From positions 1-43,157 of the forward strand of contig CAYUUU010000001.1 in the NCBI GenBank assembly GCA_964448065.1: a stretch of DNA of 43,157 bases, written 5' to 3'. The notes beneath the pieces are model-generated. The model searched no databases. It was not told the origin of the DNA and was given only the letters and a program-made list of their open reading frames with translations. The first letter of the stretch is position 1. Each line of letters begins with the position of its first letter. Both the position numbers and the translations under genes were made by a program. This document shows positions 2,823 to 43,157 of the stretch, in pieces. The stretch comes from an uncultured Gammaproteobacteria bacterium. GTDB lineage: Bacteria > Patescibacteriota > Microgenomatia > UBA12405.

Positions 2823-2844
2823 ACCTGCCTGCCGGCAGGCAGGT
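2823..2844. repeat. 22-nt perfect palindrome ACCTGCCTGCCGGCAGGCAGGT, intergenic copy
   Basis: Read directly. GC-rich island between the convergent HAD and gatB stops. Identical to the copy at 3772-3793. Confidence 0.9.
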
Positions 2845-2858
2845 TGGCAGAAAAGAAA

Positions 2859-4403
2859 CTATTTTAAAAGTTTTTCTAATATATTTTTAGCAATTACTGG
2901 ATTTGCCGATCCTTTTGAAGCTTTCATTAATTGACCAATAAGAAATCCAATAGACATCGGATTTTTAAGATAGTCTGAAACTGCTTTTGGATTAGCCTCA
3001 ATTACCTCTTTAGCGATTTTTTCAATTTCACCAGAATCAGAAACTTGAATTAAACCCTTAGACTTGGCAATTTCAACAGGATTAACACCAGTTTGATAAC
3101 TTTCGACAATTACCTGTTTAGCAACGGTGGCAGAAATTTCTGAATTGGAAACGGCCCTAAACAAATCAAAGAAAAATTGAGAATTAATTTTTGATTGATC
3201 TAAGTCTTGACCACTTTCATTAAGATAAGTTTTAATGGCCCCTAAGAAAAGATTGGCTGTAAATTTGGCAAAATCTTTAGTTTTAGCCGAATCAGTAAAT
3301 CCAACTAAATCTTTTAAAGATTTACCGACAATTTTAGTCAAATCATTAGTTTTATTTTTATAAATATAATCAACAATAATAGATTCATAAATATTGGCAA
3401 AAGCAAAATCAGCAGTAATGGTTTGAGCATCATAATCACTTAAACCATAAACTGTTTTATATTTTTCTATTTTTTGATCTGGAAGTTCAGGAACTGAGGC
3501 TTTAATGGCATCAATTTCGGCTTGAGTAAAATTGACATAAGGGATATCTGGTTCTGGAAAATAACGATAATCAGAAGAACCTTCTTTTTCCCGTTGCAAA
3601 AAGGTATGATTTTTATTGGCATCCCAACCACGAGTAGTTTTGTTAGTTTTAGATTTGGTTTCACCGGTTTGTTTAAATTCTTCAAGTTGACGATTGATCT
3701 CAAAATCTATTGCCATTTGAACTCCAGTTAAAGAAGCAACGTTTTTAATTTCGGCGAGAGGAGTATAAACCACCTGCCTGCCGGCAGGCAGGTCATCGGT
3801 TTCGATTTTTAAATTGACAGTTGGTTCACAACGCATACTACCCTTTTCAATATCTGCATCGGAAATACCTAAATATCGGATAATTTGTTGCATTTTAAGA
3901 AGATAATTTTTGGCCATTTGAGCAGAAGTTATGTCTGGTTCGGAAACTATTTCCACAAGCGGAACACCAGAGCGGTTGTAATCGATTAGGGTTAAATCTT
4001 GACCATTATTGGTTAAATGAACAGATTTGCCAGTGTCTTCTTCCATGTGGGCTCGATTAATTCTAATTTCTTGACCATCAACAACTAATTTACCGTTGAT
4101 AACAAAAGGTTTTTCAAATTGAGTTAATTGATAGCCTTTAGCTAAATCTGGATAAAAATAATTTTTTCGCTCAAAAAATGAAGTTAAATTTGGAGTACAA
4201 CCTAGAGCTAAACCCAATTTGATGCACCATTCACAGGCAGTGCGATTGGGAATTGGAAGAGCACCTGGAAGACCTAGACATACAGGACAGGTGTGAGTGT
4301 TAGCTTCAACATGAAAATGAGTTGCCGAACAACTACAAAACATTTTTGATTGAGTGCGAAGCTCGACATGAACTTCAAGACCGATTATTGGTGTGACTTT
4401 CAT
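2859..4403 (-). CDS. gatB: Asp-tRNA(Asn)/Glu-tRNA(Gln) amidotransferase subunit B
   Basis: N-terminus IIGLEVHVEL..SKMFCSC, central EIKN motif, C-terminal YqeY-like tail. Downstream of gatC-gatA on the same strand. Confidence 0.9.
   Translation of the reverse strand: MKVTPIIGLEVHVELRTQSKMFCSCSATHFHVEANTHTCPVCLGLPGALPIPNRTACEWCIKLGLALGCTPNLTSFFERKNYFYPDLAKGYQLTQFEKPFVINGKLVVDGQEIRINRAHMEEDTGKSVHLTNNGQDLTLIDYNRSGVPLVEIVSEPDITSAQMAKNYLLKMQQIIRYLGISDADIEKGSMRCEPTVNLKIETDDLPAGRQVVYTPLAEIKNVASLTGVQMAIDFEINRQLEEFKQTGETKSKTNKTTRGWDANKNHTFLQREKEGSSDYRYFPEPDIPYVNFTQAEIDAIKASVPELPDQKIEKYKTVYGLSDYDAQTITADFAFANIYESIIVDYIYKNKTNDLTKIVGKSLKDLVGFTDSAKTKDFAKFTANLFLGAIKTYLNESGQDLDQSKINSQFFFDLFRAVSNSEISATVAKQVIVESYQTGVNPVEIAKSKGLIQVSDSGEIEKIAKEVIEANPKAVSDYLKNPMSIGFLIGQLMKASKGSANPVIAKNILEKLLK
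3772..3793. repeat. 22-nt perfect palindrome ACCTGCCTGCCGGCAGGCAGGT, copy inside gatB
   Basis: Read directly. Translated in frame as LPAGRQV in ...IETDDLPAGRQVVYTPLAEIKN... Confidence 0.9.
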
Positions 4404-4405
4404 TT

Positions 4406-4446
4406 AAACCCCTCCGCCCTGCGGGCACCTCCCTTTGACAGGGGAG
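4406..4446. repeat. GC-rich two-hairpin element (AAACCC head, GCCC-tgc-GGGC, CTCCC-tttgaca-GGGGAG)
   Basis: Read directly in the gatA-gatB spacer. Same architecture as 4487-4534 and 24859-24915. Confidence 0.75.
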
Positions 4447-4486: not shown

Positions 4487-4534
4487 AAACCCTCTCCCGA
4501 CGTTCGTCGGGGTCTCCCTTAAAGAAGGGCGATT
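4487..4534. repeat. GC-rich two-hairpin element (AAACCC head, CCCGACG-ttc-GTCGGGG, CTCCC-ttaaagaa-GGGCG)
   Basis: Read directly in the gatA-gatB spacer. Confidence 0.75.
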
Positions 4535-9858: not shown

Positions 9859-11979
9859 CTATAGTTGGTAAATCTTGGTTTTACCAGACTGAAATACAAC
9901 TTGCCCACCAATCTTTATAAAAATGTCTTCGTTGAGATTTGGATATTTTTCGCGTTCTTTATTGCCAACAAAAATATATTTAACATTATATTTTTGTAAC
10001 AAAGTTTTAGTTTCATTAGTATCTTGGGACTCATAAATTTTTTGAACATCATCTTGACGTTCTTTTGGTTTATCATAACCACCACGCCAAAGCCATTCAT
10101 GAACAATCCACCCCTGGACAGTAGGTAAACCAGTAGATACAGAAACTTGACCAAAAGTGGTGTAGCTGTCCCCAACTGCTTCTAAAATTACTGGCTGACC
10201 AGAAACATTTTTGTTTAACCAGTTGATGGCAATAAAATTATCTGGATATAAATCTTTTAAATAATTTAAACCATATAAACCTTGATAATTTTCAATTCCA
10301 TAAAATGATTTAATGGCAAAATAAGGATACGACAGATGAATAATAAAAATTATAACAGCTAATAGATAGTAAAAAATACGAATAATTTTTTGAGAAATTA
10401 AGGTTTTGGCCCGAAAAATAAAATATCCAGAGGAAAGAGAATACAAAATGAAGGCTTGGTAAACTAATTTGAACATCGTATTGGCTCGACGATGTTCGTA
10501 AATATAAATGTCTTTGATATAAACAAACTCAGGAATAATAATTAAAATGGTAGCGGTAACAAAAAGTGAAAAAGCAAAAATATCGGATTTGGTTAATTTT
10601 AAATAGCGACGGAAAAATCTATAAATTAAAACTAAAATAATTGGAATATTGATTAACCAAAAACCACCATACAAAATAAATAATTGATAAAAAGGAGTAT
10701 GAGAATCGGCTAGTTTTATACCTTGAGTCATTGGACTAAAATTTAGGGAGAAAGGCAGAGAAAATAAATACCAAAAAACAATCGTTAAAAAACCATTTGA
10801 TAAAGTTTTGTTAAAAGAGATTAATAATTTATTTGATTTAAGATTATTTAAAAAAGTAAAAATAGCAAAGAAAATTCCATAAATAGCAAAATCCCAAGCG
10901 TTGGTCATATAGGCAATAGCTAAAATTAAGGCCGAAGGAATAATAAGTTTAAAATTTAAAATTTTTTCTGATGATTTGATTAAAGAAATTGATAATAAAA
11001 AAGCCAAGAAAAAAATAACAATTGGCAAATCATTTAGATGACCATGAAGATCGGAAACAACAAAACTGTAAATTGGAAATTCATGAATGGTTTTATCGCT
11101 AGTAACTGGATCGTAACCAATAAAACGAGTAGCATCTGGATACCAATATTTTGAAGCAGATTTAATAAAAGCATCTTTGGTTAAAACTAATTTATTGTTA
11201 TCAGTAATATTGATTTTAATAATTTTATATAAAGGATGAAGGTTGCCGCCGAAAGTTAATAAAAAAGCCGAGATTAAACCAAAAAAAACAACTTGATAAC
11301 TAAACCCTTCCCTAACCCTTCCCTTGACAGGGCAGGATAAGAAAAGATAAACCAAATTGGAGACCAAAGAAAAAGAAAAAGTAAAAGCCATGGCACAAAT
11401 AGTTGCTATTGATAAGTTATAAGTAATGGTTGAACTAATGGTGCTAAATTTGGTTAAAAAAGCAAAAATGTAATGACCAAAATAATAATAATTAATGGGG
11501 CTACCAGCAAACCACATATCTTGAGGAGGGGAAAAACGGCTACGTAGGATAGTGTTTATAAATCCCCAATCCATATATTTCTCTAGACCTTCAAGATCTG
11601 GAGCAAAACCACGAACAAAAGACCAGCTGATTAAAATTATTAAAAATAGAATTTCTTCAAAAACAAAAAACTTATATTTTTCTTTTAAAACTTGAATAAA
11701 TTTTTTAAAACAATTTTTGTTAAAAAAGAAAAAAATAAAATTAGTAAGAATAATTAGGCTAAAAATAATTAAGAAAGAGGTATTAGTAAAAGGTAAAATT
11801 TTTAAAACTCCTAGAGTAAAAGTAAGATAAGAAAATATTAAAACACCAATTATTTTGGAAAAAATATAACCTTTATCCCAAAATTTTTTGAATAAAGAAA
11901 AAGTTAAAGGCAAAAAAATAAGAGCAATAGAATTTATGGAAAGGTACCAAAAAATGATGAAATTAAGATCGGACAACAT
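9859..11979 (-). CDS. DUF2298 (YYY-motif) polytopic membrane protein
   Basis: 706 aa, many TM segments, signature SPINYYYFGHY, C-terminal soluble domain. Confidence 0.7.
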   Translation of the reverse strand: MLSDLNFIIFWYLSINSIALIFLPLTFSLFKKFWDKGYIFSKIIGVLIFSYLTFTLGVLKILPFTNTSFLIIFSLIILTNFIFFFFNKNCFKKFIQVLKEKYKFFVFEEILFLIILISWSFVRGFAPDLEGLEKYMDWGFINTILRSRFSPPQDMWFAGSPINYYYFGHYIFAFLTKFSTISSTITYNLSIATICAMAFTFSFSLVSNLVYLFLSCPVKGRVREGFSYQVVFFGLISAFLLTFGGNLHPLYKIIKINITDNNKLVLTKDAFIKSASKYWYPDATRFIGYDPVTSDKTIHEFPIYSFVVSDLHGHLNDLPIVIFFLAFLLSISLIKSSEKILNFKLIIPSALILAIAYMTNAWDFAIYGIFFAIFTFLNNLKSNKLLISFNKTLSNGFLTIVFWYLFSLPFSLNFSPMTQGIKLADSHTPFYQLFILYGGFWLINIPIILVLIYRFFRRYLKLTKSDIFAFSLFVTATILIIIPEFVYIKDIYIYEHRRANTMFKLVYQAFILYSLSSGYFIFRAKTLISQKIIRIFYYLLAVIIFIIHLSYPYFAIKSFYGIENYQGLYGLNYLKDLYPDNFIAINWLNKNVSGQPVILEAVGDSYTTFGQVSVSTGLPTVQGWIVHEWLWRGGYDKPKERQDDVQKIYESQDTNETKTLLQKYNVKYIFVGNKEREKYPNLNEDIFIKIGGQVVFQSGKTKIYQL
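11302..11335. repeat. GC-rich element (AAACCCTTCCCTAACCCTTCCCTTGACAGGGCAGG) inside the DUF2298 gene
   Basis: Read directly. Translated in frame as CPVKGRVREGF. Related to the CCCCTC-TTTGACAA-GAGGGG family. Confidence 0.7.
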
Positions 11980-14917: not shown

Positions 14918-16484
14918 TTTTTTTATAAATTCTAATGGTTGGATTATCAAAAACACTCCAGGTTTCCTCAGCATTTTCATCATTTAAAAACAAAGATAAA
15001 TTATAATTAAATTGTTTAATTTGATTAAAACCAAGCTGACCAGAAAAAAGAGATTGATAATATTTTTGACTGACAGGAAAATTGGAATTATTTTGATTTT
15101 TAAAGACTCGACGAGAAGGTAGGATAATATATTCCGATTTTGATAGTTGAGTAGTTAATTGTGAGTCTAGATTAGAATCAAAATCTAAATTATAAAAATC
15201 AAAATTATTTACTTGAAGATTAGAATTGTAGACTGGTAAATTAACAACATTACCAGATTCGGATAAAATTAAAGAGGTTGAAGGAATTTGATTAATTAAC
15301 CAAATAGAAGCAATGGATCGATTATCGACCAAAAAATAACGACGACAAAAATAAATTCCTGGAAGGATGCTTAATAAGCATAAAATTAAATAAATTATTT
15401 TTGATTTAATTTTTGATAAAAAGAAAACTGTAAACAAAGGACCAATAAAAAATATTGGTGACATAAATCGAGTCCATTTTGTAAAAAGTTGTCCATTGTA
15501 TAAAAAATAAATTAGACAAGGGAAAAGAATTATTAATAATTTTTTTTTAGTAGTTAACGATATTTTTTTGAAATTGAATATAAAAAAAATAAAACCAATA
15601 ATTGAAAAAATGAAGATAAAAATACCAGAAGTATAAGGAAAAATATGAGTAAATTGAAAAATATAAGGAATAGTATTTATAAATTGACGAGTATAAAAAA
15701 CAAGAATATTACCGGTAGCAACTCCGGTTTCGTAAATCATTGAACTTTTAAAATCAGAAATTTTTAGAAAAGAAAAAGGAGTAAAAATAAAAGTAAAAAC
15801 TAAAGTTAAAAGAGATAAGGATAAAATTGAAAATAAAAATTTTTTAAACCTATGTAGAGACGCATCATGATGCGTCTCTACTAATAATGAAAAAATAAGA
15901 GAAAATAAAATTGGCAAAACAAAAAAGATGCCAGTAATTTTAGAAGCAATAGCAATGGCACTGACAAGTGCTGTTAGAAATAAATATTTTGTTTTTTGAT
16001 GATTAAAATAATTTAAGGCTAGTAAAATATTGGCTGAAAAAGCAAAAAATAAAATTGATTCGGTGGTGCCAAAATGAGCTAACTGTATTAGACCTGGAGT
16101 AAAAATTAATAAAAAAACAAAAGCTAAAAGTTCTCTCTTTTGGGGAAAAATTTTTTTAGCAATTAAATAAAAAAATAAAATTGAAAAGGAAGAAAAAATA
16201 GCTGACCAAAAACGAAGAGTTAGAGTAACATGATAAAAATCATGTTTTGGGGTAGTAAAAAAAGTTAAAAATAAAGGAAATTGATTGTAAGCAAAAAAAT
16301 TAGGATTAAGATTTTTAAAAGACATTGACAAAACAGAATTAACCATATTGTTTTCATCTGGATGGAAGAAAAAAGAATTACCCCAATTTAAACCACAAAA
16401 ACGAGTTAACAAAATACAGATTAAAACTATGTTAAAAATTAGAAAAGATTTATTTTTTTCAAAAAAATTTTTTTTAGAGGACAT
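14910..16484 (-). CDS. GT-C fold (GT39/ArnT/PMT-like) glycosyltransferase, second paralog
   Basis: Polytopic. First-loop FFHPDENNM. C-terminal AEETWSVFDNPTIRIYKK matches the paralog. The ATG at 16484 overlaps the UbiA stop. Confidence 0.6.
   Translation of the reverse strand: MSSKKNFFEKNKSFLIFNIVLICILLTRFCGLNWGNSFFFHPDENNMVNSVLSMSFKNLNPNFFAYNQFPLFLTFFTTPKHDFYHVTLTLRFWSAIFSSFSILFFYLIAKKIFPQKRELLAFVFLLIFTPGLIQLAHFGTTESILFFAFSANILLALNYFNHQKTKYLFLTALVSAIAIASKITGIFFVLPILFSLIFSLLVETHHDASLHRFKKFLFSILSLSLLTLVFTFIFTPFSFLKISDFKSSMIYETGVATGNILVFYTRQFINTIPYIFQFTHIFPYTSGIFIFIFSIIGFIFFIFNFKKISLTTKKKLLIILFPCLIYFLYNGQLFTKWTRFMSPIFFIGPLFTVFFLSKIKSKIIYLILCLLSILPGIYFCRRYFLVDNRSIASIWLINQIPSTSLILSESGNVVNLPVYNSNLQVNNFDFYNLDFDSNLDSQLTTQLSKSEYIILPSRRVFKNQNNSNFPVSQKYYQSLFSGQLGFNQIKQFNYNLSLFLNDENAEETWSVFDNPTIRIYKKND
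15854..15881. repeat. 28-nt perfect palindrome GTAGAGACGCATCATGATGCGTCTCTAC (REP-like, GTAG-headed) inside the GT-C gene
   Basis: Read directly. Translated in frame as VETHHDASL. The arms are identical to the copies at 41382 and 41926. Confidence 0.85.
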
Positions 16485-22271: not shown

Positions 22272-22313
22272 TAGCCACAGAAGTTTGGATTTATCCAAAT
22301 AATGTGGCAAAAT

Positions 22314-22349
22314 AAGGGTATCTTTAAAAAGATACCCTTTTTGTTTTTT
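22314..22349 (+). terminator. rho-independent terminator after rpsT
   Basis: Stem AAGGGTATCTT / AAGATACCCTT followed by TTTTTGTTTTTT. It lies inside the 5' extension of the track metG ORF, which supports the metG start at 22374. Confidence 0.7.
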
Positions 22350-22373
22350 AATATTAATTTAGAATCTAAATTT

Positions 22374-23792
22374 ATGAAAAAATTTTTTATTACTACCCCA
22401 ATTTATTACATTAACGATATTCCTCATATTGGACATACCTGTACAACTGTGGCCGCTGATGTAATTGCCAGATTACATAGACTTAAACAAGAAGAAGTTT
22501 TCTTTTTAACAGGAACTGATGAACATGGCCAAAAAGTAGCTGAAACTGCTGAAAAAGAAGGCTTGGATGTAAAAGAATATTGTGACAAAATATCTCCAAG
22601 ATTTCAGGAAGCTTGGAAAGCTTTAAATATTAGTTTTGATTTTTTTATTAGGACTACTGATCCAAGACACGAAAAAATAGTTAGTGATATTTTACAAAAG
22701 ATTTATGATAACGGAGATGTTTATAAAGCTAAATATGAAGGTTTATATTGTATTGGTTGCGAAAAATTTTTGACCGAAACAGATTTGGTTGATGGTCACT
22801 GTGGACTTCATCCACCAGAAAAAACAGTTCAAAAAAGTGAAGATAATTGGTTTTTTAGATTGAGTAAATATGTACCCCAAATTATTGAATTAATTGAGAA
22901 TGAAAAAACTAATTATATTTTTCCAGAAGGTAAACGCTCGGAAATATTGGCAAAACTAAAAGCTGGAATAAGAGATGTGTCTATTTCTAGGGAAAATGTG
23001 GCCTGGGGAATTCCGACTCCTTGGGATAAAAAACAAACTGTCTATGTGTGGTTTGATGCTTTGATAAATTATTACAGCGCCACTCAATTCTTGGAAGGCA
23101 AAAAAGATTTTTGGCCAGCTAATTTGCATTTGTTGGGAAAAGAAATTTTATGGTTTCACACTGTAATTTGGCAAGCAATGTTACTATCAGCAAAGATTGA
23201 ACTTCCTATAAAAACTTATACTCATAGTTTTTATATGATTGATGGCCAAAAAATGTCTAAATCTTTGGGAAATGTAATTTCACCACAACAATTAAGAGAA
23301 AATTTTGGAATTGATGGAGCCAGATATTTGATTGCAACTTCTTTTCCAACTGAAAATGATAGTGATGTGGGAATTGAAAGATTTAAGGAAAAATATAATG
23401 CTGATTTGGCCAATAATTTGGGAAATTTAGTTTCAAGAGTGTCGAAGTTGGCTGAAGGCCAATCTTCCCCCAACCCCTTCTTTGACAAGACGGGGAGTCT
23501 TGATATTGAGTTTGAAAAGTTGATTGATGAAGTTAAATTTGATCAAGCTATCCAATTTGTTTTTGATAAATGGATTAACAGTTCTAATTTAAAATTAAAT
23601 CAGGAAACTCCATGGAAATTAGATAAAGAAGATTCTAAAAGAAAAGCGGTTTTGAATGAATGTATTAACAATATCAAACTAGCGGCTTTCCATTTGCAAA
23701 TTGTGATGCCAGAAACTGCCGAAAATATTTTAAATTGTTTTGAAAATACAGTTAAACCACTAGAAACAGGATTATTCCCAAGAATAAAATAA
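22374..23792 (+). CDS. metG: methionyl-tRNA synthetase (short form, no C-terminal tRNA-binding domain)
   Basis: HIGH motif (PHIGHT), KMSKS motif (KMSKSLGN), connective-peptide Cys knuckle CIGCEKF...HC. Confidence 0.9.
   Translation: MKKFFITTPIYYINDIPHIGHTCTTVAADVIARLHRLKQEEVFFLTGTDEHGQKVAETAEKEGLDVKEYCDKISPRFQEAWKALNISFDFFIRTTDPRHEKIVSDILQKIYDNGDVYKAKYEGLYCIGCEKFLTETDLVDGHCGLHPPEKTVQKSEDNWFFRLSKYVPQIIELIENEKTNYIFPEGKRSEILAKLKAGIRDVSISRENVAWGIPTPWDKKQTVYVWFDALINYYSATQFLEGKKDFWPANLHLLGKEILWFHTVIWQAMLLSAKIELPIKTYTHSFYMIDGQKMSKSLGNVISPQQLRENFGIDGARYLIATSFPTENDSDVGIERFKEKYNADLANNLGNLVSRVSKLAEGQSSPNPFFDKTGSLDIEFEKLIDEVKFDQAIQFVFDKWINSSNLKLNQETPWKLDKEDSKRKAVLNECINNIKLAAFHLQIVMPETAENILNCFENTVKPLETGLFPRIK
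23460..23495. repeat. GC-rich element CAATCTTCCCCCAACCCCTTCTTTGACAAGACGGGG inside metG
   Basis: Read directly. Translated in frame as QSSPNPFFDKTG. Same family as 36978-37011 and 42923-42957. Confidence 0.85.
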
Positions 23793-24858: not shown

Positions 24859-24915
24859 AAAACCCACCCACCCCGCAATGGCGGGGCACCCTCCCTTAAG
24901 TAATGGAGGGCGATT
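24859..24915. repeat. GC-rich two-hairpin element (AAAACCC head, CCCCGC-aatg-GCGGGG, CCCTCC-cttaagtaat-GGAGGG)
   Basis: Read directly. Starts 2 nt after the tatD stop. Confidence 0.8.
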
Positions 24916-24923
24916 TTTATATT

Positions 24924-24994
24924 AAAACCACTCAGTCCCGATAAATCGGGACACTTGCCTGACGGCAGGCAGGTCTCCCCTTGATGAAAGGGAG
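24924..24994. repeat. GC-rich three-hairpin element (GTCCCG-ataaa-TCGGGAC, CTTGCCTG-acgg-CAGGCAGG, CTCCCC-ttgatgaaa-GGGAG)
   Basis: Read directly. The middle hairpin (24954-24974) is a degenerate copy of the 22-nt palindrome at 2823 and 3772. Confidence 0.8.
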
Positions 24995-25343: not shown

Positions 25344-27362
25344 ATGGCAGAAAAAATATCAAACACAAAAAAAATTGATATAACTTATAAAGAATTTGAT
25401 TTAAATACATTTGATAAAGATGGTTATAATAAAAATGGATTTGATAAAGATGGTTATAATAAAAATGGATTTAATAAATTTGGTTTTAATAAAGAAACCC
25501 ATACATATTTTGATAAAAATGATTTTGATATGGGTGGAACAAACAGAAATACTAATACAAAATTTGGCTTAAATGGTTATGATATAGATGGTTATGATAT
25601 AGATGGTTATGATAGATACGGTTATAATAAATATGGATTCGATAGAAAAGGTTTTGATAAATTGGGGTTTAATAAAAATAGTATTAATAGGGATACTGGT
25701 AAAGAATTTGATTCAAAAGGATTTAATAAAGATGGTTATAATAAAAATGGTTACAATGTATATGGATTCGATAGATACGGTTACAATGCATATGGATTCG
25801 ACAGACATGGTTACAATAAGTATGGCATTAATAGAAAAGGTTTCGACAGGAATGGTATTAATAAAAATACTAATACGAAATTTAATTTAAATGGTTTTGA
25901 TAAAAATGGGTATGATAAGGATGGTTATAATAGAAATGGATTTGATAAAGATGGTTATGATAGAAATGGTTATAGTAGAAATGGTTATAATAAGGATGGT
26001 TATAATAAACATGGCATTAATAGAAAAGGTTTCGACAGGAATGGTATTAATAGAGATACTAATACGAAATTTAATTTAAATGGTTTTGATAAAGATGGGT
26101 ATGATAAAGATGGTTATGATAAAGATGGTTATGATAGAAATAGATTCGATAAAGATGGTTTTCATAGAGATGGATTTAATAAGGAGGATTTTAATAAATA
26201 TGGCATTAACAGAAAAGGTTTCGATAAAAATGGATTTGATATATTTGGCCGCAACCGAGAGACATTAACAAAATTTGATTTAAATGGTTTTGATCAAAAA
26301 GGTTTTGATAAAAATGGTGTTAATAGAGATACTAGTACGAAATTTAATTTAAATGGTTTTGATAAAGATGGGTATGATAAGGATGGTTATAATAAACATG
26401 GCATTAATAGAAAAGGTTTCGACAGGAATGGTATTAATAGAGATACTAATACGAAATTTAATTTAAATGGTTTTGATAAAGATGGGTATGATGAAGATGG
26501 GTATGATAAAGATGGTTATGATAAAGAAGGATATAATCACAATGATTTCAATAGAGACAATATTCATCGATTAACCAAAACTGAATATGATATAAAAGGT
26601 TTTAATCTTTATGGAATAGATAAAGATGGGTTTAACAGAGATACTGGTGAGATAGATGAAAATATAATATTAGTTAGACAATATTTAGAATCAAAAAATA
26701 GTAAAATTAAATTTGCCAAACAGAATAATATTAATATTGATGATTTAAATAAAATTTTAAAAATTGCTATTAAAATTTATCCTGTAATTAAAAGTCAGTT
26801 GGATGAAAAATCAAAGAAAACTGGAGAAATATTTTTAAATACTAGAAGAGAAATAGTTAAGGAACTGATTAGTGGCCAAAAAAATGTAGATGATTATTTG
26901 GAAAACGGAGCAATTGTTAAATGGGATGAATTGATGAAAATTGATTCATTTGATGATAAAAAACAATTAGTTAATATTTTTACTAAATGGTGTTCAAATA
27001 ATCAACATATAGATATAAAAAAATATTTTAAAATATTTTTACCAAATGATGCTAGTTATAATATAAATGAGGTTATTCTACAATTTGTAGATATGATGAC
27101 AAGAGCTAAACATGATAATAGTCTAACTTCATTAATAAAAAATCTTTATACTCAAAAAAGAGAATTGGAAACTTACAAAAAAACCTTTGAAAGAAAAGAA
27201 TTTTTAGGTATGAGTCTAAATATAAATGGTAAAAGTATAATTATTAATGACGAAATAATTAATCAAGCTTTTGAAAAAGTTAAAAAACAAGATAATTATA
27301 TTTGTTTTAAAACAGTAAGTGAAAAAATAATGGAGATTGTAAAAGAAAATAAAAATGATTAG
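25344..27362 (+). CDS. repeat protein: about 435 aa of 5-residue G-[FY]-[DN]-[KR]-x repeats plus a roughly 235-aa non-repetitive C-terminal domain
   Basis: Read from the translation (NGFDKDGYDKDGYNRNGFDKDGYDRNGY...). No signal peptide or TM segment. I recognise no family. Confidence 0.7.
   Translation: MAEKISNTKKIDITYKEFDLNTFDKDGYNKNGFDKDGYNKNGFNKFGFNKETHTYFDKNDFDMGGTNRNTNTKFGLNGYDIDGYDIDGYDRYGYNKYGFDRKGFDKLGFNKNSINRDTGKEFDSKGFNKDGYNKNGYNVYGFDRYGYNAYGFDRHGYNKYGINRKGFDRNGINKNTNTKFNLNGFDKNGYDKDGYNRNGFDKDGYDRNGYSRNGYNKDGYNKHGINRKGFDRNGINRDTNTKFNLNGFDKDGYDKDGYDKDGYDRNRFDKDGFHRDGFNKEDFNKYGINRKGFDKNGFDIFGRNRETLTKFDLNGFDQKGFDKNGVNRDTSTKFNLNGFDKDGYDKDGYNKHGINRKGFDRNGINRDTNTKFNLNGFDKDGYDEDGYDKDGYDKEGYNHNDFNRDNIHRLTKTEYDIKGFNLYGIDKDGFNRDTGEIDENIILVRQYLESKNSKIKFAKQNNINIDDLNKILKIAIKIYPVIKSQLDEKSKKTGEIFLNTRREIVKELISGQKNVDDYLENGAIVKWDELMKIDSFDDKKQLVNIFTKWCSNNQHIDIKKYFKIFLPNDASYNINEVILQFVDMMTRAKHDNSLTSLIKNLYTQKRELETYKKTFERKEFLGMSLNINGKSIIINDEIINQAFEKVKKQDNYICFKTVSEKIMEIVKENKND
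25822..26520 (+). repeat. higher-order tandem DNA repeat (period 189-198 nt) inside the repeat-protein gene
   Basis: ATGGCATTAA[T/C]AGAAAAGGTTTCGA recurs at 25822, 26011, 26200 and 26398. The copies at 26011 and 26398 look identical for roughly 110 nt by eye. Confidence 0.85.
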
Positions 27363-36464: not shown

Positions 36465-36500
36465 GTAGACGATAGATCGTCGATCTTAGATCGTAGATAA
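36465..36500. repeat. GATC/CGAT-rich element GTAGACGATAGATCGTCGATCTTAGATCGTAGATAA
   Basis: Read directly. Lies between the convergent DEAD-box and deaminase genes and supplies the last codons (STI) and the stop of the deaminase. Confidence 0.7.
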
Positions 36501-36953
36501 AATCCAACCTTTGACATCTTTCATTAATTCAGTACATTCGGTTTGAAGAATGCCCCCAATTACTTCCATTTTTTTACCATTAGTAGGAATTAATTTTTGA
36601 GCATGATTGACGGCGTGATAATCAGAAATTTCATATTTATTTTGAGAGACATCTTCTTGAAAAGCCCCAAAAACAACTCTGTTTAAGCCCGCCCAAGAAG
36701 CGGCAGCCAAACACATGGAACAGGGTTCGATTGTAGTATAAAGAGTGCAATCTGAGAGGTCAAAAGTATTAAGTTTTTTGGCGGCATTATTAATACAATT
36801 AAGATCATTATGACCCGCAGGCTCTGGAGTTCCATGACCTTCGGCAATAATTAAATTATCTTTTACCATTAGAGAAATTAAGGGTAACTCTTTGGCAACT
36901 AATCGTTGTTTACCTTTAGTAACAACTATTTTCATAAAATCTTGATCGGTCAT
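36486..36953 (-). CDS. CMP/dCMP (TadA/guanine deaminase-like) zinc deaminase with an atypical HND motif
   Basis: PCSMC zinc motif and family-like context (TLYTTIEPCSMCLAAASWAGLNRVVFGA). The H-A-E position reads GHNDLNCI. Confidence 0.65.
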   Translation of the reverse strand: MTDQDFMKIVVTKGKQRLVAKELPLISLMVKDNLIIAEGHGTPEPAGHNDLNCINNAAKKLNTFDLSDCTLYTTIEPCSMCLAAASWAGLNRVVFGAFQEDVSQNKYEISDYHAVNHAQKLIPTNGKKMEVIGGILQTECTELMKDVKGWILSTI

Positions 36954-36977
36954 AGTCTCATTCTACCATTTTAATTT

Positions 36978-37011
36978 CAATCTTCCCCTGCCCCCTCTTT
37001 GACAAGAGGGG
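36978..37011. repeat. GC-rich element CAATCTTCCCCTGCCCCCTCTTTGACAAGAGGGG, intergenic copy
   Basis: Read directly, between the AlkD-like stop and the deaminase start. Confidence 0.85.
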
Positions 37012-37015
37012 TTAA

Positions 37016-37780
37016 TTATTTTTTCTTGTTGTATTTGCGGCCAGTGAGGGCTTTGGATAAAGCTTCACGATAAGCAATTTTAGGTAATTTGTCTTGATTA
37101 GTCTGAAGATAAATTAAAACTTCATCTTTATGAAATTTAACTAGACTTCTGAGTATCCAAGAAACAGCTTTAGTAATTAAAATTTCTTTTTCTGATTTTA
37201 AATTTTCAATATTTTCAAAAGCTAATTTTGACAATCTTTGGTCGTCAGATTGACTTAAAGATTTAGTTAATAAAACTAGACTAGCTCGACGTTTATTAAT
37301 ATTAGAATTTTGATTAAATTGTTTTAAAATTTTTTCCCAAGCTGGCCAATTAGAAAGTAAAATTTCACTAGTAAAATTTGACTGACACAAAACATCATTT
37401 TCAGCCCAACCACAGGTATAATTTAACCATAAATCTAGATGTTTAGGATCGAAATTTTGAAGGACATTTTTTGATAATCCTAAAATTACAGCAGCAACAG
37501 CAATCTCAGTATAAGTGGTGCCATGTTGATAAAGAGAATCTAACAAATCAATAGTTTTAATTTCATCTAGATTGTTTTCTTTAATAATTTTTTTGGCAAG
37601 ATTTGTTATTTGGGCACTGGTAAAACCATGATAGATTTTGTCAGTACCAAGATAATTTTTAGGCCATTGATAGTCAGATTTGGAGTCTGGTTTTAATTGA
37701 TTAATATCTTTTAAAAGTTGGAGATGAAAAGAATTTTTTATTTTATTGTTTCTTTTTAGAGAGTTTTTTACCGATAACAT
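37016..37780 (-). CDS. AlkD-like DNA alkylation repair (HEAT-repeat glycosylase) family protein
   Basis: Matches my memory of B. cereus AlkD: GWAENDVLC (vs WWDSVDSI), NKRRASLVLL (vs WLQRAAIL), ITKAVSWILRSL (vs IQKAIGWVLREY), KIAYREALSK. Confidence 0.7.
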   Translation of the reverse strand: MLSVKNSLKRNNKIKNSFHLQLLKDINQLKPDSKSDYQWPKNYLGTDKIYHGFTSAQITNLAKKIIKENNLDEIKTIDLLDSLYQHGTTYTEIAVAAVILGLSKNVLQNFDPKHLDLWLNYTCGWAENDVLCQSNFTSEILLSNWPAWEKILKQFNQNSNINKRRASLVLLTKSLSQSDDQRLSKLAFENIENLKSEKEILITKAVSWILRSLVKFHKDEVLIYLQTNQDKLPKIAYREALSKALTGRKYNKKK

Positions 37781-41374: not shown

Positions 41375-41647
41375 TTAAGATTGTAGAGACGCCCCGCGGG
41401 GCGTCTCTACAGAAGTTAACTTTATTTTTTCAGTTCTAGATAATTTTTTAATTCTAGATTCTTCTTTGGAAGCAAGTGATCTGTTTTCAAATTCTTTGGA
41501 ATAAACTAATTTTACGGGACGACGAACTTTGGTGTATTTGGCACCTAATTTAGAGCTGTTATGTTCTTTGATTCTTCTTTCTAAATCGGTGGTAATTCCA
41601 GTGTAAAGAGTTTGATCATTACACTGAATAATATAAAGAAAATACAT
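41375..41647 (-). CDS. GIY-YIG nuclease family protein (UPF0213-like)
   Basis: YFLYIIQC.DQTLYTGITTDLERRIKEHN, plus the R, E and N core. The C-terminal 12 aa (SVETPRGASLQS) are encoded by the palindrome. Confidence 0.8.
   Translation of the reverse strand: MYFLYIIQCNDQTLYTGITTDLERRIKEHNSSKLGAKYTKVRRPVKLVYSKEFENRSLASKEESRIKKLSRTEKIKLTSVETPRGASLQS
41382..41411. repeat. 30-nt perfect palindrome TGTAGAGACGCCCCGCGGGGCGTCTCTACA (REP-like, GTAG-headed)
   Basis: Read directly. Identical to 41926-41955. Confidence 0.9.
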
Positions 41648-41648
41648 T

Positions 41649-42241
41649 TTATTTTTTATAAAATTTATCTTTTTGCCAATTAATAGGGTTATTTATTATA
41701 TAGTTTTTAACTATTGATAGTTCTTTTTTGTTTTGAATAATATGATCGTAAAATCTTGATTGCCAAGAAAAAAATAAATGTTGTTGATCACAAATTCGTT
41801 TGACTGATGATTTAAATTGATTAATGACTTTAGGAATTTCTTGATTTGATTTTACATTTAATCTTTTAAAAAACTCTGGATGGTTTTGATGTGATGGAAT
41901 AATAATTGGTGATATTTGATCTTTATGTAGAGACGCCCCGCGGGGCGTCTCTACAAGAATTTCCCGTATAGTAATCAATAAATGAAGATGGTTGGGGGCA
42001 TTACCACCCAAGGGTTTATGATTAAATTATTTCGAAGGGAAATTGTTTTTAATAATTCATTTTTGGTTATTTTTCCAATTTCTGATAATTCCATTTTATT
42101 ATCAATAATTTTTCCAAAGAAATTGTTTTTATTGTAAGTACAAATAGTGATGAAATAATAGCCAGGGTTTGAATAATCCCAGTTATTTAAACGAGAAGAA
42201 TTAATTTTGTATCGATCATCAAATCGATTTTCCATTTTCAT
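41649..42241 (-). pseudogene. REP-associated tyrosine transposase (RAYT; IS200/IS605-type Y1 HUH enzyme) split by a frameshift
   Basis: Track ORFs 41975-42241 and 41649-42011 join into one protein if one C is removed from the C5 run (G5 on the + strand, 41987-41991): ...NPWVVMPNHLHLLI (HUH motif) ... WQSRFYDHIIQN (catalytic Tyr) ...NNPINW. Its ATG overlaps the rarA TGA (ATGA). Confidence 0.7.
41926..41955. repeat. 30-nt perfect palindrome TGTAGAGACGCCCCGCGGGGCGTCTCTACA inside the RAYT gene
   Basis: Read directly. Translated in frame as VETPRGASL, just after the HUH motif. Confidence 0.9.
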
Positions 42242-43157
42242 TTATTTTTTGGTTTAAAATATTTTTTACCTTTTAATTTTTCAGGTAATAAATCCTCTTT
42301 TGAATACATTTGGTAACCCTGACCATAGCCAATCTCTTTCATTAGTTTAGTTTCGGCATTGCGGAGATTAAGCGGTATTGGAAGATTACCATATTGTTGA
42401 ACATCGGCCAGAGCGGATAAATAACCCTCGTAAGCAGAACGGTCTTTGGGACTCTTGGCTAAATAAACAACTCCATGGGCTAGATTTTCCCGACACTCTG
42501 GATAACCAATGGTTTCACAGGTTCTAAAGACCTCATTGGCTAACATAAGAGCTGAGGAGTTAGCAATTCCAATATCTTCACTAGCAAAGACAACCATTCG
42601 TCTGGCAATAAACTTTGGATCTTCTCCGGCTTCGATTAGACGAGCTAGATAATAAAGAGAGGCGTCGACATTTGATGCTCTCATACTCTTAATTAATGAG
42701 CTGATAGTATTGTAATGTTCCTCCCCTTTTTTATCGAAGCGAAGAAAAGTGTTTTGAAGAGCCTGTTTAAGACTTTCGAGTTTTAAATTGCCGTATAAAG
42801 TATAGGCATTATCAAGCATAGTAATGCATTGACGAGCATCACCGTTGGCCATTTGAATAAGCCATTCCTTGGCATCTTTTTTAATTAAAACCCCTTTTTT
42901 ATCTAAACCCTTCTTTGATTTCACAATCTCCCCTAACCCCTCTTTGACAAGAGGGGGACTTAAAACAGAAACAGCCCTGTCTATTATTTGACCTATTTCT
43001 TCATCAGATAATTCTTTTAAAACAAAAACTCGGCAACGAGAAAGAAGTGGAGAGATAACTTCAAAAGAAGGGTTTTCGGTGGTGGCCCCAATTAAAATTA
43101 AAGCTCCTGATTCAACTGAAGGAAGTAAAAAATCTTGTTGAGCTTTGTTGAAACGGT
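42238..43157 (-). CDS. rarA: replication-associated recombination protein A (AAA+ ATPase), partial (N-terminus off the right edge)
   Basis: My translation upstream of the track ORF stays open: RFNKAQQDFLLPSVESGALILIGATTENPSFEVISPLLSRCRVFVLKEL... then ANGDARQ and the MgsA C-terminal domain. Confidence 0.85.
   Translation of the reverse strand, partial: RFNKAQQDFLLPSVESGALILIGATTENPSFEVISPLLSRCRVFVLKELSDEEIGQIIDRAVSVLSPPLVKEGLGEIVKSKKGLDKKGVLIKKDAKEWLIQMANGDARQCITMLDNAYTLYGNLKLESLKQALQNTFLRFDKKGEEHYNTISSLIKSMRASNVDASLYYLARLIEAGEDPKFIARRMVVFASEDIGIANSSALMLANEVFRTCETIGYPECRENLAHGVVYLAKSPKDRSAYEGYLSALADVQQYGNLPIPLNLRNAETKLMKEIGYGQGYQMYSKEDLLPEKLKGKKYFKPKNK
42923..42957. repeat. GC-rich element CAATCTCCCCTAACCCCTCTTTGACAAGAGGGGG inside rarA
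   Basis: Read directly. Translated in frame, in the opposite orientation to the metG copy, as SPPLVKEGLGEI. Confidence 0.85.

What the first reader, a model, noticed from the sequence alone, without database searches (positions are those of the whole stretch)
23460..23495. The CAATCTYCCCC...CCCCTCTTTGACAAGAGGGG family: three close copies (metG, rarA, intergenic) plus diverged relatives
Three copies share a roughly 35-nt consensus, made of a CAATCT(T)CCCC head and a CCCCTC-TTTGACAA-GAGGGG hairpin:
- 23460-23495, in metG, a + strand gene
- 36978-37011, intergenic
- 42923-42957, in rarA, a - strand gene

Relatives with the same TTGACA-loop hairpin occur at 11302-11335 (in the DUF2298 gene) and 4406-4446.

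All copies have the same orientation on the + strand. The metG and rarA copies are therefore read in opposite senses, as SSPNPFFDKTG and SPPLVKEGLGE. The loop contains TTGACA, the sigma-70 -35 consensus. This may be coincidental, but it could create internal or antisense promoters.
Basis: seen in the sequence. Interest (0 to 1): 0.7.

Follow-up and report, generated by a model that had tools for sequence, protein, structure and literature searches.

The report
Hairpin repeats tied to DUF559 nuclease
A 40-base C-rich hairpin repeat, found inside the metG and rarA genes and between genes of a small Shapirobacteria genome, belongs to a large strand-polarised repeat family that also forms the inverted ends of small DUF559 nuclease genes, which suggests a REP-like selfish-DNA system run by an unexpected enzyme.

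Summary
Three near-identical 38-40 nt copies lie on the + strand, in metG, upstream of a tadA-like gene, and in rarA. The core has 0 matches expected by chance.

- **Spread:** the exact core occurs in more than 110 places in other Shapirobacteria-like genomes. It nearly always carries the AATCT(T)CCCC head, which was not part of the search pattern.
- **Context:** about a third of copies sit in-frame in housekeeping genes, in either sense. Orientation ignores transcription but follows local GC skew (96 vs 21). All 8 elements of this class in the window are on the + strand.
- **RarA and MetRS:** RarA orthologs without the element are 22 aa shorter. In MetRS the element replaces 8 aa with 12, and carriers are scattered across the tree.
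- **DUF559 link:** searching from the protein side, 54 of 73 small DUF559 (Vsr/EDxHD-like) nuclease genes are flanked by inverted copies of this element or a sister family. Each paralog has its own family. The window's relatives at 4406 and 11302 belong to such sister families.
- **Structure:** the head mirrors the hairpin's 5' arm.
- **Promoter idea:** not supported.

Best reading: non-autonomous REP/REPIN-like copies tied to a DUF559 nuclease. Mobilisation by that nuclease is inferred, not shown.

The parts
23458..23497 (+). Element copy, subtype B (head CAATCTTCCCCC, hairpin CCCCTTCTT-TGAC-AAGACGGGG with a T.C mismatch). It lies in-frame and in sense inside metG (ORF 22302-23792) and encodes QSSPNPFFDKTG.
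   Evidence: (E 1e-20). MetRS alignment. DNA comparison with the closest ortholog lacking the element.
36976..37014 (+). Intergenic element copy, between the stop of an AlkD-like DNA_alkylation gene (37016-37780, -) and the start of a tadA-like deaminase gene (36486-36953, -). It is antisense to both. It is the only copy seen that combines a B-type head (CTT) with an A-type hairpin.
   Evidence: (E 8e-19). The orthologous copy in the syntenic relative L194 has a small hairpin nested in its loop.
42922..42959 (+). Element copy, subtype A (head CAATCTCCCC, hairpin CCCCTCTT-TGAC-AAGAGGGG). It lies in-frame and antisense inside rarA (- strand, running off the window end) and encodes SPPLVKEGLGEIV.
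   Evidence: (E 8e-19). RarA ortholog alignment. DNA alignment.
42886..42923 (+). Possible decayed second element (TAAAACCCC...TAAACCCTTCTTTGAT) directly upstream of the rarA copy. Together the two account for the 66-nt (22-aa) insertion relative to RarA orthologs.
   Evidence: This assignment rests on sequence resemblance only.
11302..11336 (+). Sister-family element (head AAACCCTTCCC, hairpin CCTTCCC-TTGACA-GGGCAGG) inside the DUF2298 gene (9859-11979, -), antisense and in-frame. It resembles the inverted ends of the DUF559 gene in L139.
   Evidence: (E 1.7e-4).
4406..4446 (+). Sister-family element with two hairpins (head AAACCCCTCC, hairpin 1 GCCC-TGC-GGGC, hairpin 2 CTCCC-TTTGACA-GGGAG) in the gatA/gatB intergenic region. 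It is nearly identical to the inverted ends of DUF559 genes in L172, L178, L180 and L188. On the - strand its G-rich complement lies just before the gatB ATG (4403).
   Evidence: Not significant with model R1.
4487..4532 (+). A further sister-family element (head AAACCCTCTC, hairpin 1 CCGAC-GTTC-GTCGG, hairpin 2 with a TTAAAGAA loop), in tandem with the element at 4406-4446.
   Evidence: It resembles the L144-L154 type of DUF559 ends.
24859..24910 (+). Sister-family element (head AAAACCCACC, hairpin 1 CCCCGC-AATG-GCGGGG, hairpin 2 CCCTCC...GGAGGG) just after the TatD stop codon (24856).
   Evidence: A similar element lies next to the orthologous tadA promoter in L194.
24924..24994 (+). Sister-family element with an extra nested palindrome (CTTGCCTGACGGCAGGCAGG), in tandem with the element at 24859-24910.

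Best explanation
**What it is.** The copies are non-autonomous, mostly solo members of a REP/REPIN-like family of short structured repeats in Shapirobacteria-like (CPR) genomes.

**Anatomy.** Each unit has three parts:
- a pyrimidine head, (T)TCAATCT(T)CCCC;
- a short variable linker, which in some copies is a sequence-variable small hairpin;
- a conserved 8-9 bp hairpin with a TGAC loop.

The head is the mirror image of the hairpin's 5' arm.

**Link to DUF559.** The same units, in inverted orientation with heads outward, bracket small (about 125 aa) DUF559 genes. DUF559 is a Vsr/EDxHD-like nuclease of the PD-(D/E)XK fold. Each DUF559 paralog has its own repeat family.

**Inferred mechanism.** The DUF559 nuclease recognises the folded or three-segment unit of its own family. 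It nicks or processes it so that copies are made or kept. This is tied to replication, because copies lie almost only with the pyrimidine strand on the G-rich strand, which is taken to be the leading strand and so has the sequence of the lagging-strand template. Copies persist in intergenic DNA and, in-frame, in tolerant loops of essential proteins such as MetRS and RarA. Five of the six reading frames are open.

**Shown:** family membership, anatomy, strand polarity, in-frame gene insertions, and the physical and evolutionary association with DUF559.

**Inferred:** that DUF559 is the mobilising enzyme, that a single-stranded or triplex-like form is the substrate, and that the polarity arises at insertion rather than through later selection.
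For: **Family**
- 109 of 120 copies also carry the AATCT head 8-33 nt upstream, although the head was not in the search pattern.

**No transcriptional logic**
- 44 of 127 copies lie in ORFs, 23 sense and 21 antisense. Intergenic copies are co-oriented with both neighbours in 22 cases and opposed to both in 21.
- In-frame peptides occur in TsaD, a RadA-like protein, LeuRS, PheRS-beta, an acyl-CoA synthetase and a ClpB-like protein.
- About 40 of 120 RarA orthologs carry some GC-repeat insert at the same spot (my count from the alignment).

**Polarity**
- The top strand lies on the locally G-rich strand in 96 of 117 copies (p = 1e-12), and in 76 of 82 where |skew| exceeds 0.1.
- 23 of 23 extra solo hits, not selected by the pattern, share the orientation of the seed copy in their locus. 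Opposite copies occur only in doublets or as DUF559 flanks (my tally).
- 8 of 8 elements in the window are on the + strand.

**DUF559**
- Genes flanked by inverted copies were first seen in L109, L052, L013, L015, L009 and L027. The protein matches PF04480 (E 6e-28) and PDB 3HRL.
- Starting from the protein, 54 of 73 metagenome loci have flanking inverted repeats scoring 30 or more, against 0 of 73 shuffled controls.
- Most strong R1 hits in those loci (212 kb searched) abut the gene ends, on the + strand upstream and the - strand downstream.
- The repeat family changes with the DUF559 lineage. Within one genome (JBAZTV01), three paralogs each have a different family.

**Structure**
- Linker hairpins vary in sequence but keep their pairing.
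- Subtype B differs from A by one extra position in the head, the 5' arm and the 3' arm together. Head type and hairpin type are linked 73/41 with one exception.
Against: - No DUF559 gene lies in this 43-kb contig (tblastn), so the link for this genome rests on relatives.
- Vsr-like nucleases hydrolyse DNA. To my knowledge none is known to transfer strands, so a copying step needs host functions that are not identified.
- No target-site duplication or clean empty site was found. In metG the element replaces 24 nt, and the orthologous intergenic site in L194 is also filled.
- DUF559 cassettes sit at conserved sites, for example between a dUTPase-like gene and an RmuC-like gene (named from sequence motifs only). 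They differ mainly by inversion, so the cassette itself looks resident rather than hopping.
- 19 of 73 DUF559 loci lack clear inverted repeats.
- Copies were collected by exact match to the core, which biases the sample towards well-kept copies.
- GC skew stands in for replication direction. No origin or terminus was mapped.
- Polarity could come from selection against pyrimidine/purine mirror repeats in one orientation rather than from the insertion mechanism.
Confidence: 0.55

Rival explanations
1. The DUF559 association is passive. The repeats spread by another route, such as a Y1 (RAYT/IS200-like) transposase, gene conversion, or uptake and recombination between relatives. DUF559 cassettes then merely collect them, or use a pair of them as an inversion switch.
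For: - The window has a RAYT-like ORF (41649-42241, Y1_Tnp E 2e-4). Its orthologs in L194 and L195 show faint Y1_Tnp hits.
- The strand polarity is of the kind I recall being reported for IS200/IS605 single-strand transposition (my own knowledge).
- DUF559 cassettes are syntenic and inverted between genomes. DUF559 is enriched among predicted programmed-inversion targets (PMC9881135).
- The metG copy is patchy on the MetRS tree with identical boundaries, which fits allele transfer by recombination.
Against: - The RAYT-like ORF is associated with a different palindrome family that carries the GTAG...CTAC tag (41382, 41926). The element studied here has no GTAG or CGTC tag.
- Passive accumulation does not explain why each DUF559 paralog in one genome has its own family at both ends, in the same head-outward geometry, with the downstream copy overlapping the stop codon.
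Confidence: 0.2
2. The element is a host chromosome-polarity or maintenance signal, comparable to KOPS, Chi or a DNA-uptake sequence. It would be kept by selection because of its replication-linked orientation, not because it is selfish.
For: - Strong co-orientation with GC skew.
- Near-invariant sequence across genomes whose proteins differ by 20-30%.
- G-rich motifs on the complementary strand.
Against: - The unit is 38-70 nt and structured, whereas those polar motifs are short words (my own knowledge).
- Density is low. The main family has 3 copies in 43 kb.
- Several unrelated-sequence families of the same architecture coexist in one contig.
- The units form the inverted ends of a nuclease gene, where one copy necessarily has the 'wrong' orientation.
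- They disrupt essential genes in-frame.
Confidence: 0.1
3. The element is a cis-regulatory signal: an internal or antisense sigma-70 promoter using the TTGACA, an intrinsic terminator, or a structured RNA motif.
For: - TTGACA matches the -35 consensus.
- The intergenic copy scores as terminator-like on the + strand.
- In DUF559 cassettes a TATAAT box follows the upstream copy.
Against: - No -10 partner lies at 16-18 nt for any of the three window copies (sequence). None is among the listed sites.
- In the cassettes the spacing from TTGACA to TATAAT is 9-22 nt.
- There is no orientation preference relative to genes.
- There is no + strand gene upstream of the terminator-like copy.
- There is no Rfam match.
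- Sister families have other loops.
Confidence: 0.05
4. The resemblance is chance, or the gene-internal copies are ordinary conserved coding sequence of MetRS and RarA.
For: I recall that RarA proteins in general have a variable, glycine-rich segment near this position (my own knowledge).
Against: - 0 matches are expected by chance, and model E-values are near 1e-19.
- Most orthologs lack the segment.
- The same DNA occurs intergenically and in unrelated genes in both senses.
Confidence: 0.01

Closest known systems
REP / REPIN elements with their RAYT (REP-associated tyrosine transposase) genes
   Same: - Short GC-rich imperfect palindromes present as singles and as inverted doublets.
- A small resident gene flanked by inverted copies of its own repeat family.
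- Several gene-and-family pairs in one genome.
- Mostly extragenic, but some copies inside replication and repair genes (PMC3733652).
   Different: - The flanked gene is a DUF559 Vsr/EDxHD-like hydrolytic nuclease, not an HUH Y1 transposase.
- There is no GTAG or CGTC tag.
- The unit has an extra pyrimidine head that mirrors the hairpin arm, and an optional second hairpin.
- About a third of copies lie in ORFs.
Rickettsia palindromic elements (RPE)
   Same: Selfish palindromic repeats inserted in-frame into essential protein-coding genes. They add short peptides at tolerated positions, and orthologs differ in presence or absence (my own knowledge of Ogata et al. 2000).
   Different: - As I recall, RPEs are about 100-150 bp, confined to Rickettsia and without an associated enzyme.
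- The present units are 38-70 nt, occur in CPR bacteria, are strongly strand-polarised and are tied to a nuclease gene.
IS200/IS605 family and its miniature derivatives (PATEs)
   Same: Hairpins with conserved mismatches as recognition elements. Orientation bias linked to replication direction, which I recall as single-strand insertion into the lagging-strand template (my own knowledge of Ton-Hoang et al. 2010).
   Different: - IS200/IS605 ends are not inverted repeats, and the enzyme is a Y1 HUH transposase.
- No cleavage tetranucleotide could be defined here, and the associated protein has a different fold.
EDxHD / Vsr-like homing endonucleases (I-Bth0305I) and Vsr
   Same: - DUF559 is classified with Vsr and I-Bth0305I (PMC3424549).
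- Conserved E, D, H and D positions are invariant in the cassette proteins.
- The EDxHD relatives are known selfish-gene nucleases (PMC3384342).
   Different: - The cassette genes are free-standing, not in introns or inteins.
- They are bracketed by complete inverted repeats rather than interrupting a target site.
- Sequence searches reach only 3HRL, not Vsr or I-Bth0305I.
MITEs / insertion sequences with terminal inverted repeats
   Same: The composite form (inverted repeat, one ORF, inverted repeat) looks like a minimal insertion sequence. The gene-less inverted doublets look like MITEs.
   Different: - No DDE or other known transposase is present.
- No target-site duplication was seen.
- The commonest form is a single end, not a pair.
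- The composite sits at syntenic sites.

Membership tests
REP/REPIN-RAYT system | Short (20-40 nt) imperfect palindrome in many dispersed copies | tested here: met
   38-40 nt units with an 8-9 bp hairpin. More than 110 stretches in other genomes.
REP/REPIN-RAYT system | Conserved GTAG (or CGTC) tetranucleotide at one end of the palindrome | tested here: not met
   The consensus TnCAATCTCCCCC..CCCCTCTTTGACAAGAGGGGGAA has no such tag. A different palindrome in the window (41382, 41926) does have GTAG...CTAC.
REP/REPIN-RAYT system | Cognate Y1 (RAYT) transposase gene flanked by the repeats | tested here: not met
   The flanked gene is DUF559 (PF04480). The RAYT-like ORF at 41649-42241 is not flanked by this element.
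REP/REPIN-RAYT system | Inverted doublets (REPINs) besides singles | tested here: met
   Tail-to-tail doublets with spacers of about 20 nt at L006 5090-5200 and L073 6840-6950.
Rickettsia palindromic elements | In-frame insertion in protein-coding genes, with orthologs that lack it | tested here: met
   RarA gains 22 aa. MetRS has a 12-for-8 aa replacement. 50 in-ORF copies were found elsewhere.
Rickettsia palindromic elements | About 100-150 bp element of the RPE sequence families, in Rickettsia | tested here: not met
   Units are 38-70 nt and the organism is Shapirobacteria-like.
IS200/IS605-type single-strand transposition | Orientation bias relative to replication direction | tested here: met
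   96 of 117 copies follow local GC skew. Skew is a proxy; no origin or terminus was mapped.
IS200/IS605-type single-strand transposition | Y1 HUH transposase; insertion 3' of a specific tetranucleotide without duplication | tested here: inconclusive
   No Y1 gene is linked to the element. Flanks show only weak preferences (T, T/C, C before the head; G, A after the hairpin). No clean empty site was obtained.
Sigma-70 promoter | -35 hexamer followed at 16-18 nt by a -10 hexamer | tested here: not met
   A perfect TTGACA is present, but no -10-like hexamer follows at 16-18 nt for any of the three copies (sequence; absent from the sites listed).
Intrinsic terminator | GC hairpin followed by a T run, downstream of a co-oriented gene | tested here: not met
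   Only the intergenic copy has a T-rich tail, on the + strand, and both of its neighbours are on the - strand. Family-wide, the 3' flank is A-rich.
MITE / TIR insertion sequence | Terminal inverted repeats with target-site duplication and a transposase in the autonomous form | tested here: inconclusive
   Inverted ends around one ORF are met. No duplication was seen at L052 or L013. The ORF is a nuclease with no known transposase activity.
DUF559 / Vsr / EDxHD nuclease (for the associated protein) | Match to PF04480 and to the solved DUF559 structure; conserved acidic and histidine catalytic positions | tested here: met
   PF04480 E 6e-28. 3HRL E 7e-21 with the profile. E78, D80, H84, D91 and D95 are invariant in 7 sequences. 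Nuclease activity itself is not testable here.
Known RNA families (Rfam) | Match above the gathering score | tested here: not met
   0 matches in the whole window.

The most novel reading that the evidence does not exclude
DUF559 proteins are a very widespread orphan family of Vsr/EDxHD-like nucleases. On this reading they are the dedicated enzymes of a previously unrecognised class of prokaryotic selfish DNA. That DNA consists of short pyrimidine-mirror-plus-hairpin units that fold into a three-segment, triplex-like form. The units are copied strand-specifically at the replication fork without an HUH, DDE or serine/tyrosine recombinase, and they colonise even essential genes in-frame in minimal CPR genomes.
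Probability: 0.3. Interest if true: 0.9.

Novelty: new variant of a known kind. Interest (0 to 1): 0.78.

Why it matters
- **A role for DUF559.** If the link holds, it gives a concrete role and a testable substrate to a large orphan nuclease family. E. coli has a member, which I recall as YcjD; the closest NCBIfam model was PRK09767.
- **Junk peptides explained.** It explains the recurrent low-complexity peptides such as SPLVKEGLGE and SSPNPFFDKTG that interrupt housekeeping proteins of CPR bacteria and confuse annotation and alignments.
- **A second REP-like system.** It adds a mechanistically different example beside REP/RAYT of a resident nuclease gene paired with its own dispersed repeat family.
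- **Practical uses.** The strict strand polarity could serve as a marker of replication direction in fragmentary metagenome assemblies. The three-way co-variation of head and hairpin offers a natural test case for triplex or H-DNA-like recognition.

Tried and rejected
- **Known RNAs.** Rfam and tRNA/tmRNA scans found nothing.
- **Promoter and terminator readings.** Rejected on spacing, on orientation statistics and on gene context.
- **A wrong lead of mine.** I first thought the window's intergenic copy lay at the same chromosomal site as the DUF559 cassettes of L052, L109 and L013, because the downstream -10-like boxes look alike. tblastn with the window's tadA-like and AlkD-like proteins found no such neighbours. 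The cassette flanks look like a dUTPase and an RmuC-type protein from their sequence motifs, and they have no counterpart in the window. I dropped that idea.
- **Insertion boundaries.**
  - The closest MetRS ortholog (L192, 87% nt identity) shows a 24-to-36 nt replacement, not a clean insertion.
  - The RarA insert is composite.
  - The syntenic relative L194 has the intergenic site filled too, with a nested hairpin and an extra element.
  - No target-site duplication or exact target could therefore be defined.
- **DUF559 gene strand versus GC skew.** No bias, 32 vs 21, as expected for a symmetric cassette.
- **Reach of sequence searches.** PDB searches did not reach Vsr or I-Bth0305I. That relationship rests on the literature.
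- **Taxonomic range.** Apparent hits in 'Gammaproteobacteria' MAGs are best explained by wrong labels. Those contigs have 30-37% GC, and two have the same lengths as contigs encoding RarA and AlkD proteins 70-77% identical to the window's (134,031 and 43,249 nt). I make no cross-phylum claim.
- **Literature.** Searches for DUF559, EDxHD, Vsr-like plus repeats, and CPR plus palindromic elements found no description of this association.
Full report
**1. The observation**

The window is a whole 43,157-nt contig. Its AlkD-like protein is on record with that contig length. The genome is Shapirobacteria-like (Candidate Phyla Radiation) with about 30% G+C.

- The 20-nt core has three matches on the + strand and none in 100 shuffles.
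- A covariance model (R1) built only from copies in other genomes finds them with E-values near 1e-19 to 1e-20.
- Each folds as an 8-9 bp hairpin with a TGAC loop.
- The host genes are confirmed as MetRS and RarA/MgsA. The intergenic copy lies between an AlkD-like gene and a tadA-like deaminase gene, both on the - strand.

**2. A large family with fixed anatomy**

Most are from Shapirobacteria, Peribacteria and other Patescibacteria MAGs.

Several MAGs labelled Gammaproteobacteria have 30-37% G+C. Two of their contigs match, by length, contigs that encode RarA and AlkD proteins 70-77% identical to the window's. I treat those labels as wrong and make no cross-phylum claim.

- Only the hairpin was searched, yet 109 of 120 copies carry AATCT 8-33 nt upstream.
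- The consensus is TnCAATCTCCCCC-(3-6 nt)-CCCCTCTT TGAC AAGAGGGG-GAA.
- There are two subtypes:
  - A: head CAATCTCCCC, perfect stem.
  - B: head CAATCTTCCCC, stem CCCCTTCTT/AAGACGGGG with a fixed T.C mismatch.
- Head type and stem type are linked 73/41. The one exception is the window's intergenic copy.
- In some copies the linker is a small hairpin whose sequence differs from copy to copy while the pairing is kept.

**3. Context**

- Of 127 copies, 44 lie inside ORFs of 80 aa or more, 23 in sense and 21 antisense.
- Intergenic copies are as often co-oriented with both neighbours (22) as opposed to both (21).
- Five of the six frames are open, and all five are used.
- Hosts elsewhere include TsaD, a RadA-like protein, LeuRS, PheRS-beta, an acyl-CoA synthetase and a ClpB-like protein.

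This pattern argues against an RNA-level or transcriptional role. It fits DNA-level selfish spread, filtered by what proteins tolerate.

**4. The two gene copies**

*RarA.* Most orthologs read ...KKL-ETK-ISKDAK.... The window and its closest relative (P0121, 88% identical) carry 25 aa instead of those 3, which is 66 extra nt. That is the element plus what looks like a decayed second unit at 42886-42923. About 40 of 120 orthologs have other GC-repeat-derived inserts at the same spot (my count), so it is a hotspot.

*MetRS.* The element-bearing alleles are the window, P0003, P0005, P0006 and P0029.
- They have 12 aa (SSPxPFFDKTGS) where the others have 8 mutually similar residues.
- At DNA level, 36 nt replace 24 nt.
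- Carriers are scattered over a neighbour-joining tree, each next to non-carriers.
- This means repeated gain at one site, or transfer of the allele by recombination. I cannot tell which.
- Within the metG copies only the linker codon varies (AAC, AGC, GGC, GAC), while flanking codons show synonymous change.

**5. Strand polarity**

- The pyrimidine (top) strand lies on the locally G-rich strand in 96 of 117 copies. Where |skew| exceeds 0.1 it does so in 76 of 82.
- Hits that were not selected by the search pattern share the orientation of the seed copy in their locus in 23 of 23 cases. Opposite copies occur only as close doublets or as the two ends of a DUF559 gene (my tally).
- In the window the skew is positive almost throughout. 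All eight elements of this architecture are head-first on the + strand, although most genes are on the - strand.
- Taking the G-rich strand as the leading strand, which is established for most bacteria but inferred here, the top strand has the sequence of the lagging-strand template.

**6. The DUF559 link**

- In six loci from the genome scan, a small ORF is bracketed by inverted copies, heads outward. The upstream copy is followed by a TATAAT box and the ATG. The downstream copy overlaps the stop codon, giving ...IPLLSKRG*.
- The ORF is DUF559 (PF04480, E 6e-28). It matches the solved 'endonuclease-like protein' 3HRL.
- DUF559 is classified with Vsr and the EDxHD homing endonuclease I-Bth0305I (PMC3424549; PMC3384342).

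To avoid circularity I searched metagenomes from the protein side.
- Of 73 loci with enough flank, 54 have flanking inverted repeats scoring 30 or more, against 0 of 73 shuffled controls.
- Most strong R1 hits abut the gene ends in the expected orientations.
- The repeats all share the architecture of head, optional hairpin 1, then a C-rich hairpin 2 with a TTGACA, TTAACA, TTAAAAA or TTGATAA loop.
- Their sequence changes with the DUF559 lineage.
- In one genome, three DUF559 paralogs each have their own family.

The window's two 'relatives' are members of such sister families: 4406-4446 matches the L172/L178/L180/L188 type, and 11302-11336 the L139 type. The window itself has no DUF559 gene.

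The cassettes sit at conserved positions in related genomes but in either orientation. That agrees with a published enrichment of DUF559 among predicted inversion targets (PMC9881135). Gene-less inverted doublets also exist.

**7. A structural clue**

- The head is the same-strand mirror image of the hairpin's 5' arm: TCTCCCC against CCCCTCT in subtype A, and TCTTCCCC against CCCCTTCT in subtype B.
- Subtype B differs from A by one extra position at the equivalent place in the head, the 5' arm and the 3' arm.
- Across 121 ends of many families, the head matches the mirrored arm better than the direct arm in 61 cases and worse in 17. These ends are related to one another, so the p-value overstates the evidence.
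- Pyrimidine mirror repeats are the classic requirement for H-DNA or parallel triplexes (my own knowledge). The head could lie parallel to the purine 3' arm. This is an inference. It could equally reflect a protein that measures three segments.

**8. Mechanism and rivals**

*Preferred reading.* This is a REP/REPIN-like system in which the resident DUF559 nuclease acts on the folded unit of its own family. Copies arise or persist in a replication-coupled, strand-specific way.

*What is shown:* family membership, anatomy, strand polarity, in-frame gene insertions and the association with DUF559.

*What is not shown:* catalysis, the copying step and the origin of the polarity.

*Rivals:*
- Passive association, with another mobiliser or with recombination.
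- A host polarity signal.
- A regulatory element.
- Selection against one orientation of a triplex-prone repeat could explain the polarity without any insertion bias.

The window does contain a classical candidate: a RAYT-like ORF next to GTAG-tagged palindromes. That is a different repeat family.

**9. Novelty**

Full-text searches for DUF559, EDxHD, Vsr-like plus repeats, and CPR plus palindromic elements found no description of this association. [quoted passage not shown]

I rate it a new variant of a known kind: REP-like repeats with a resident gene. There is a real chance that the enzymology is new.

Noticed in passing
window 41375-42241; palindromes at 41382-41410, 41926-41954 and 15853-15881: A classical REP-like family, TGTAGAGACGC-N8-GCGTCTCTAC with GTAG...CTAC ends, lies next to a RAYT-like ORF that is split in two (41649-42011 and 41975-42241; Y1_Tnp E 2e-4) and a small GIY-YIG gene (41375-41647). 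One palindrome lies inside the split ORF. Syntenic relatives L194 and L195 have an intact 181-228 aa ORF with a faint Y1_Tnp hit at that position.
   Followed up: partly
window 2824-2843, 3773-3792 (inside gatB) and 24960-24979: A 20-nt perfect palindrome, CCTGCCTGCCGGCAGGCAGG, occurs twice, once inside the gatB ORF. A variant is nested inside another element. The same palindrome forms the linker hairpin of an element copy in L010, so these mini-palindromes may be mobile in their own right.
   Followed up: partly
L194 10778-10950, orthologous to window 36954-37015: In a syntenic relative the orthologous element copy has a small hairpin (GTCCCGATTTATCGGGAT) inserted in its loop. A second, sister-family element sits between it and the tadA -10 box. 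This shows nested insertions and turnover at one intergenic site.
   Followed up: partly
RarA orthologs P0121-P0240, at the position of window 42886-42959: About 40 of 120 RarA orthologs carry different short GC-repeat-derived peptides (SPLSKGDLEGLK, SPLHQGEIPRRGRG, SPLVKGGIKGG and others) at the same junction. It is an insertion hotspot shared by several repeat families.
   Followed up: partly
window 25344-27362 (+): A 672-aa ORF is built largely of a 15-nt (5-aa) periodic repeat, such as GYDKDGYNKNGFDKD, with dozens of units.
   Followed up: no
L005, L013, L016, L029, L046, L076 and other loci: MAGs titled 'uncultured Gammaproteobacteria' have 30-37% G+C. They encode MetRS, RarA and AlkD proteins close to those of Shapirobacteria, so their taxonomic labels look wrong.
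   Followed up: partly
L112-L117, L123, L052, L013/L116; and L122, L127, L128, L131, L132: DUF559 cassettes occupy the same chromosomal site in related genomes, for example between a dUTPase-like and an RmuC-like gene (named from motifs only). They point in opposite directions in different genomes, as expected from inversion between the flanking inverted repeats.
   Followed up: partly
window 4399-4415, - strand: The G-rich complement of the 4406-4446 element supplies GGAGGGG about 7 nt upstream of the gatB ATG (4403). An inserted element may have been co-opted as the ribosome-binding site.
   Followed up: no
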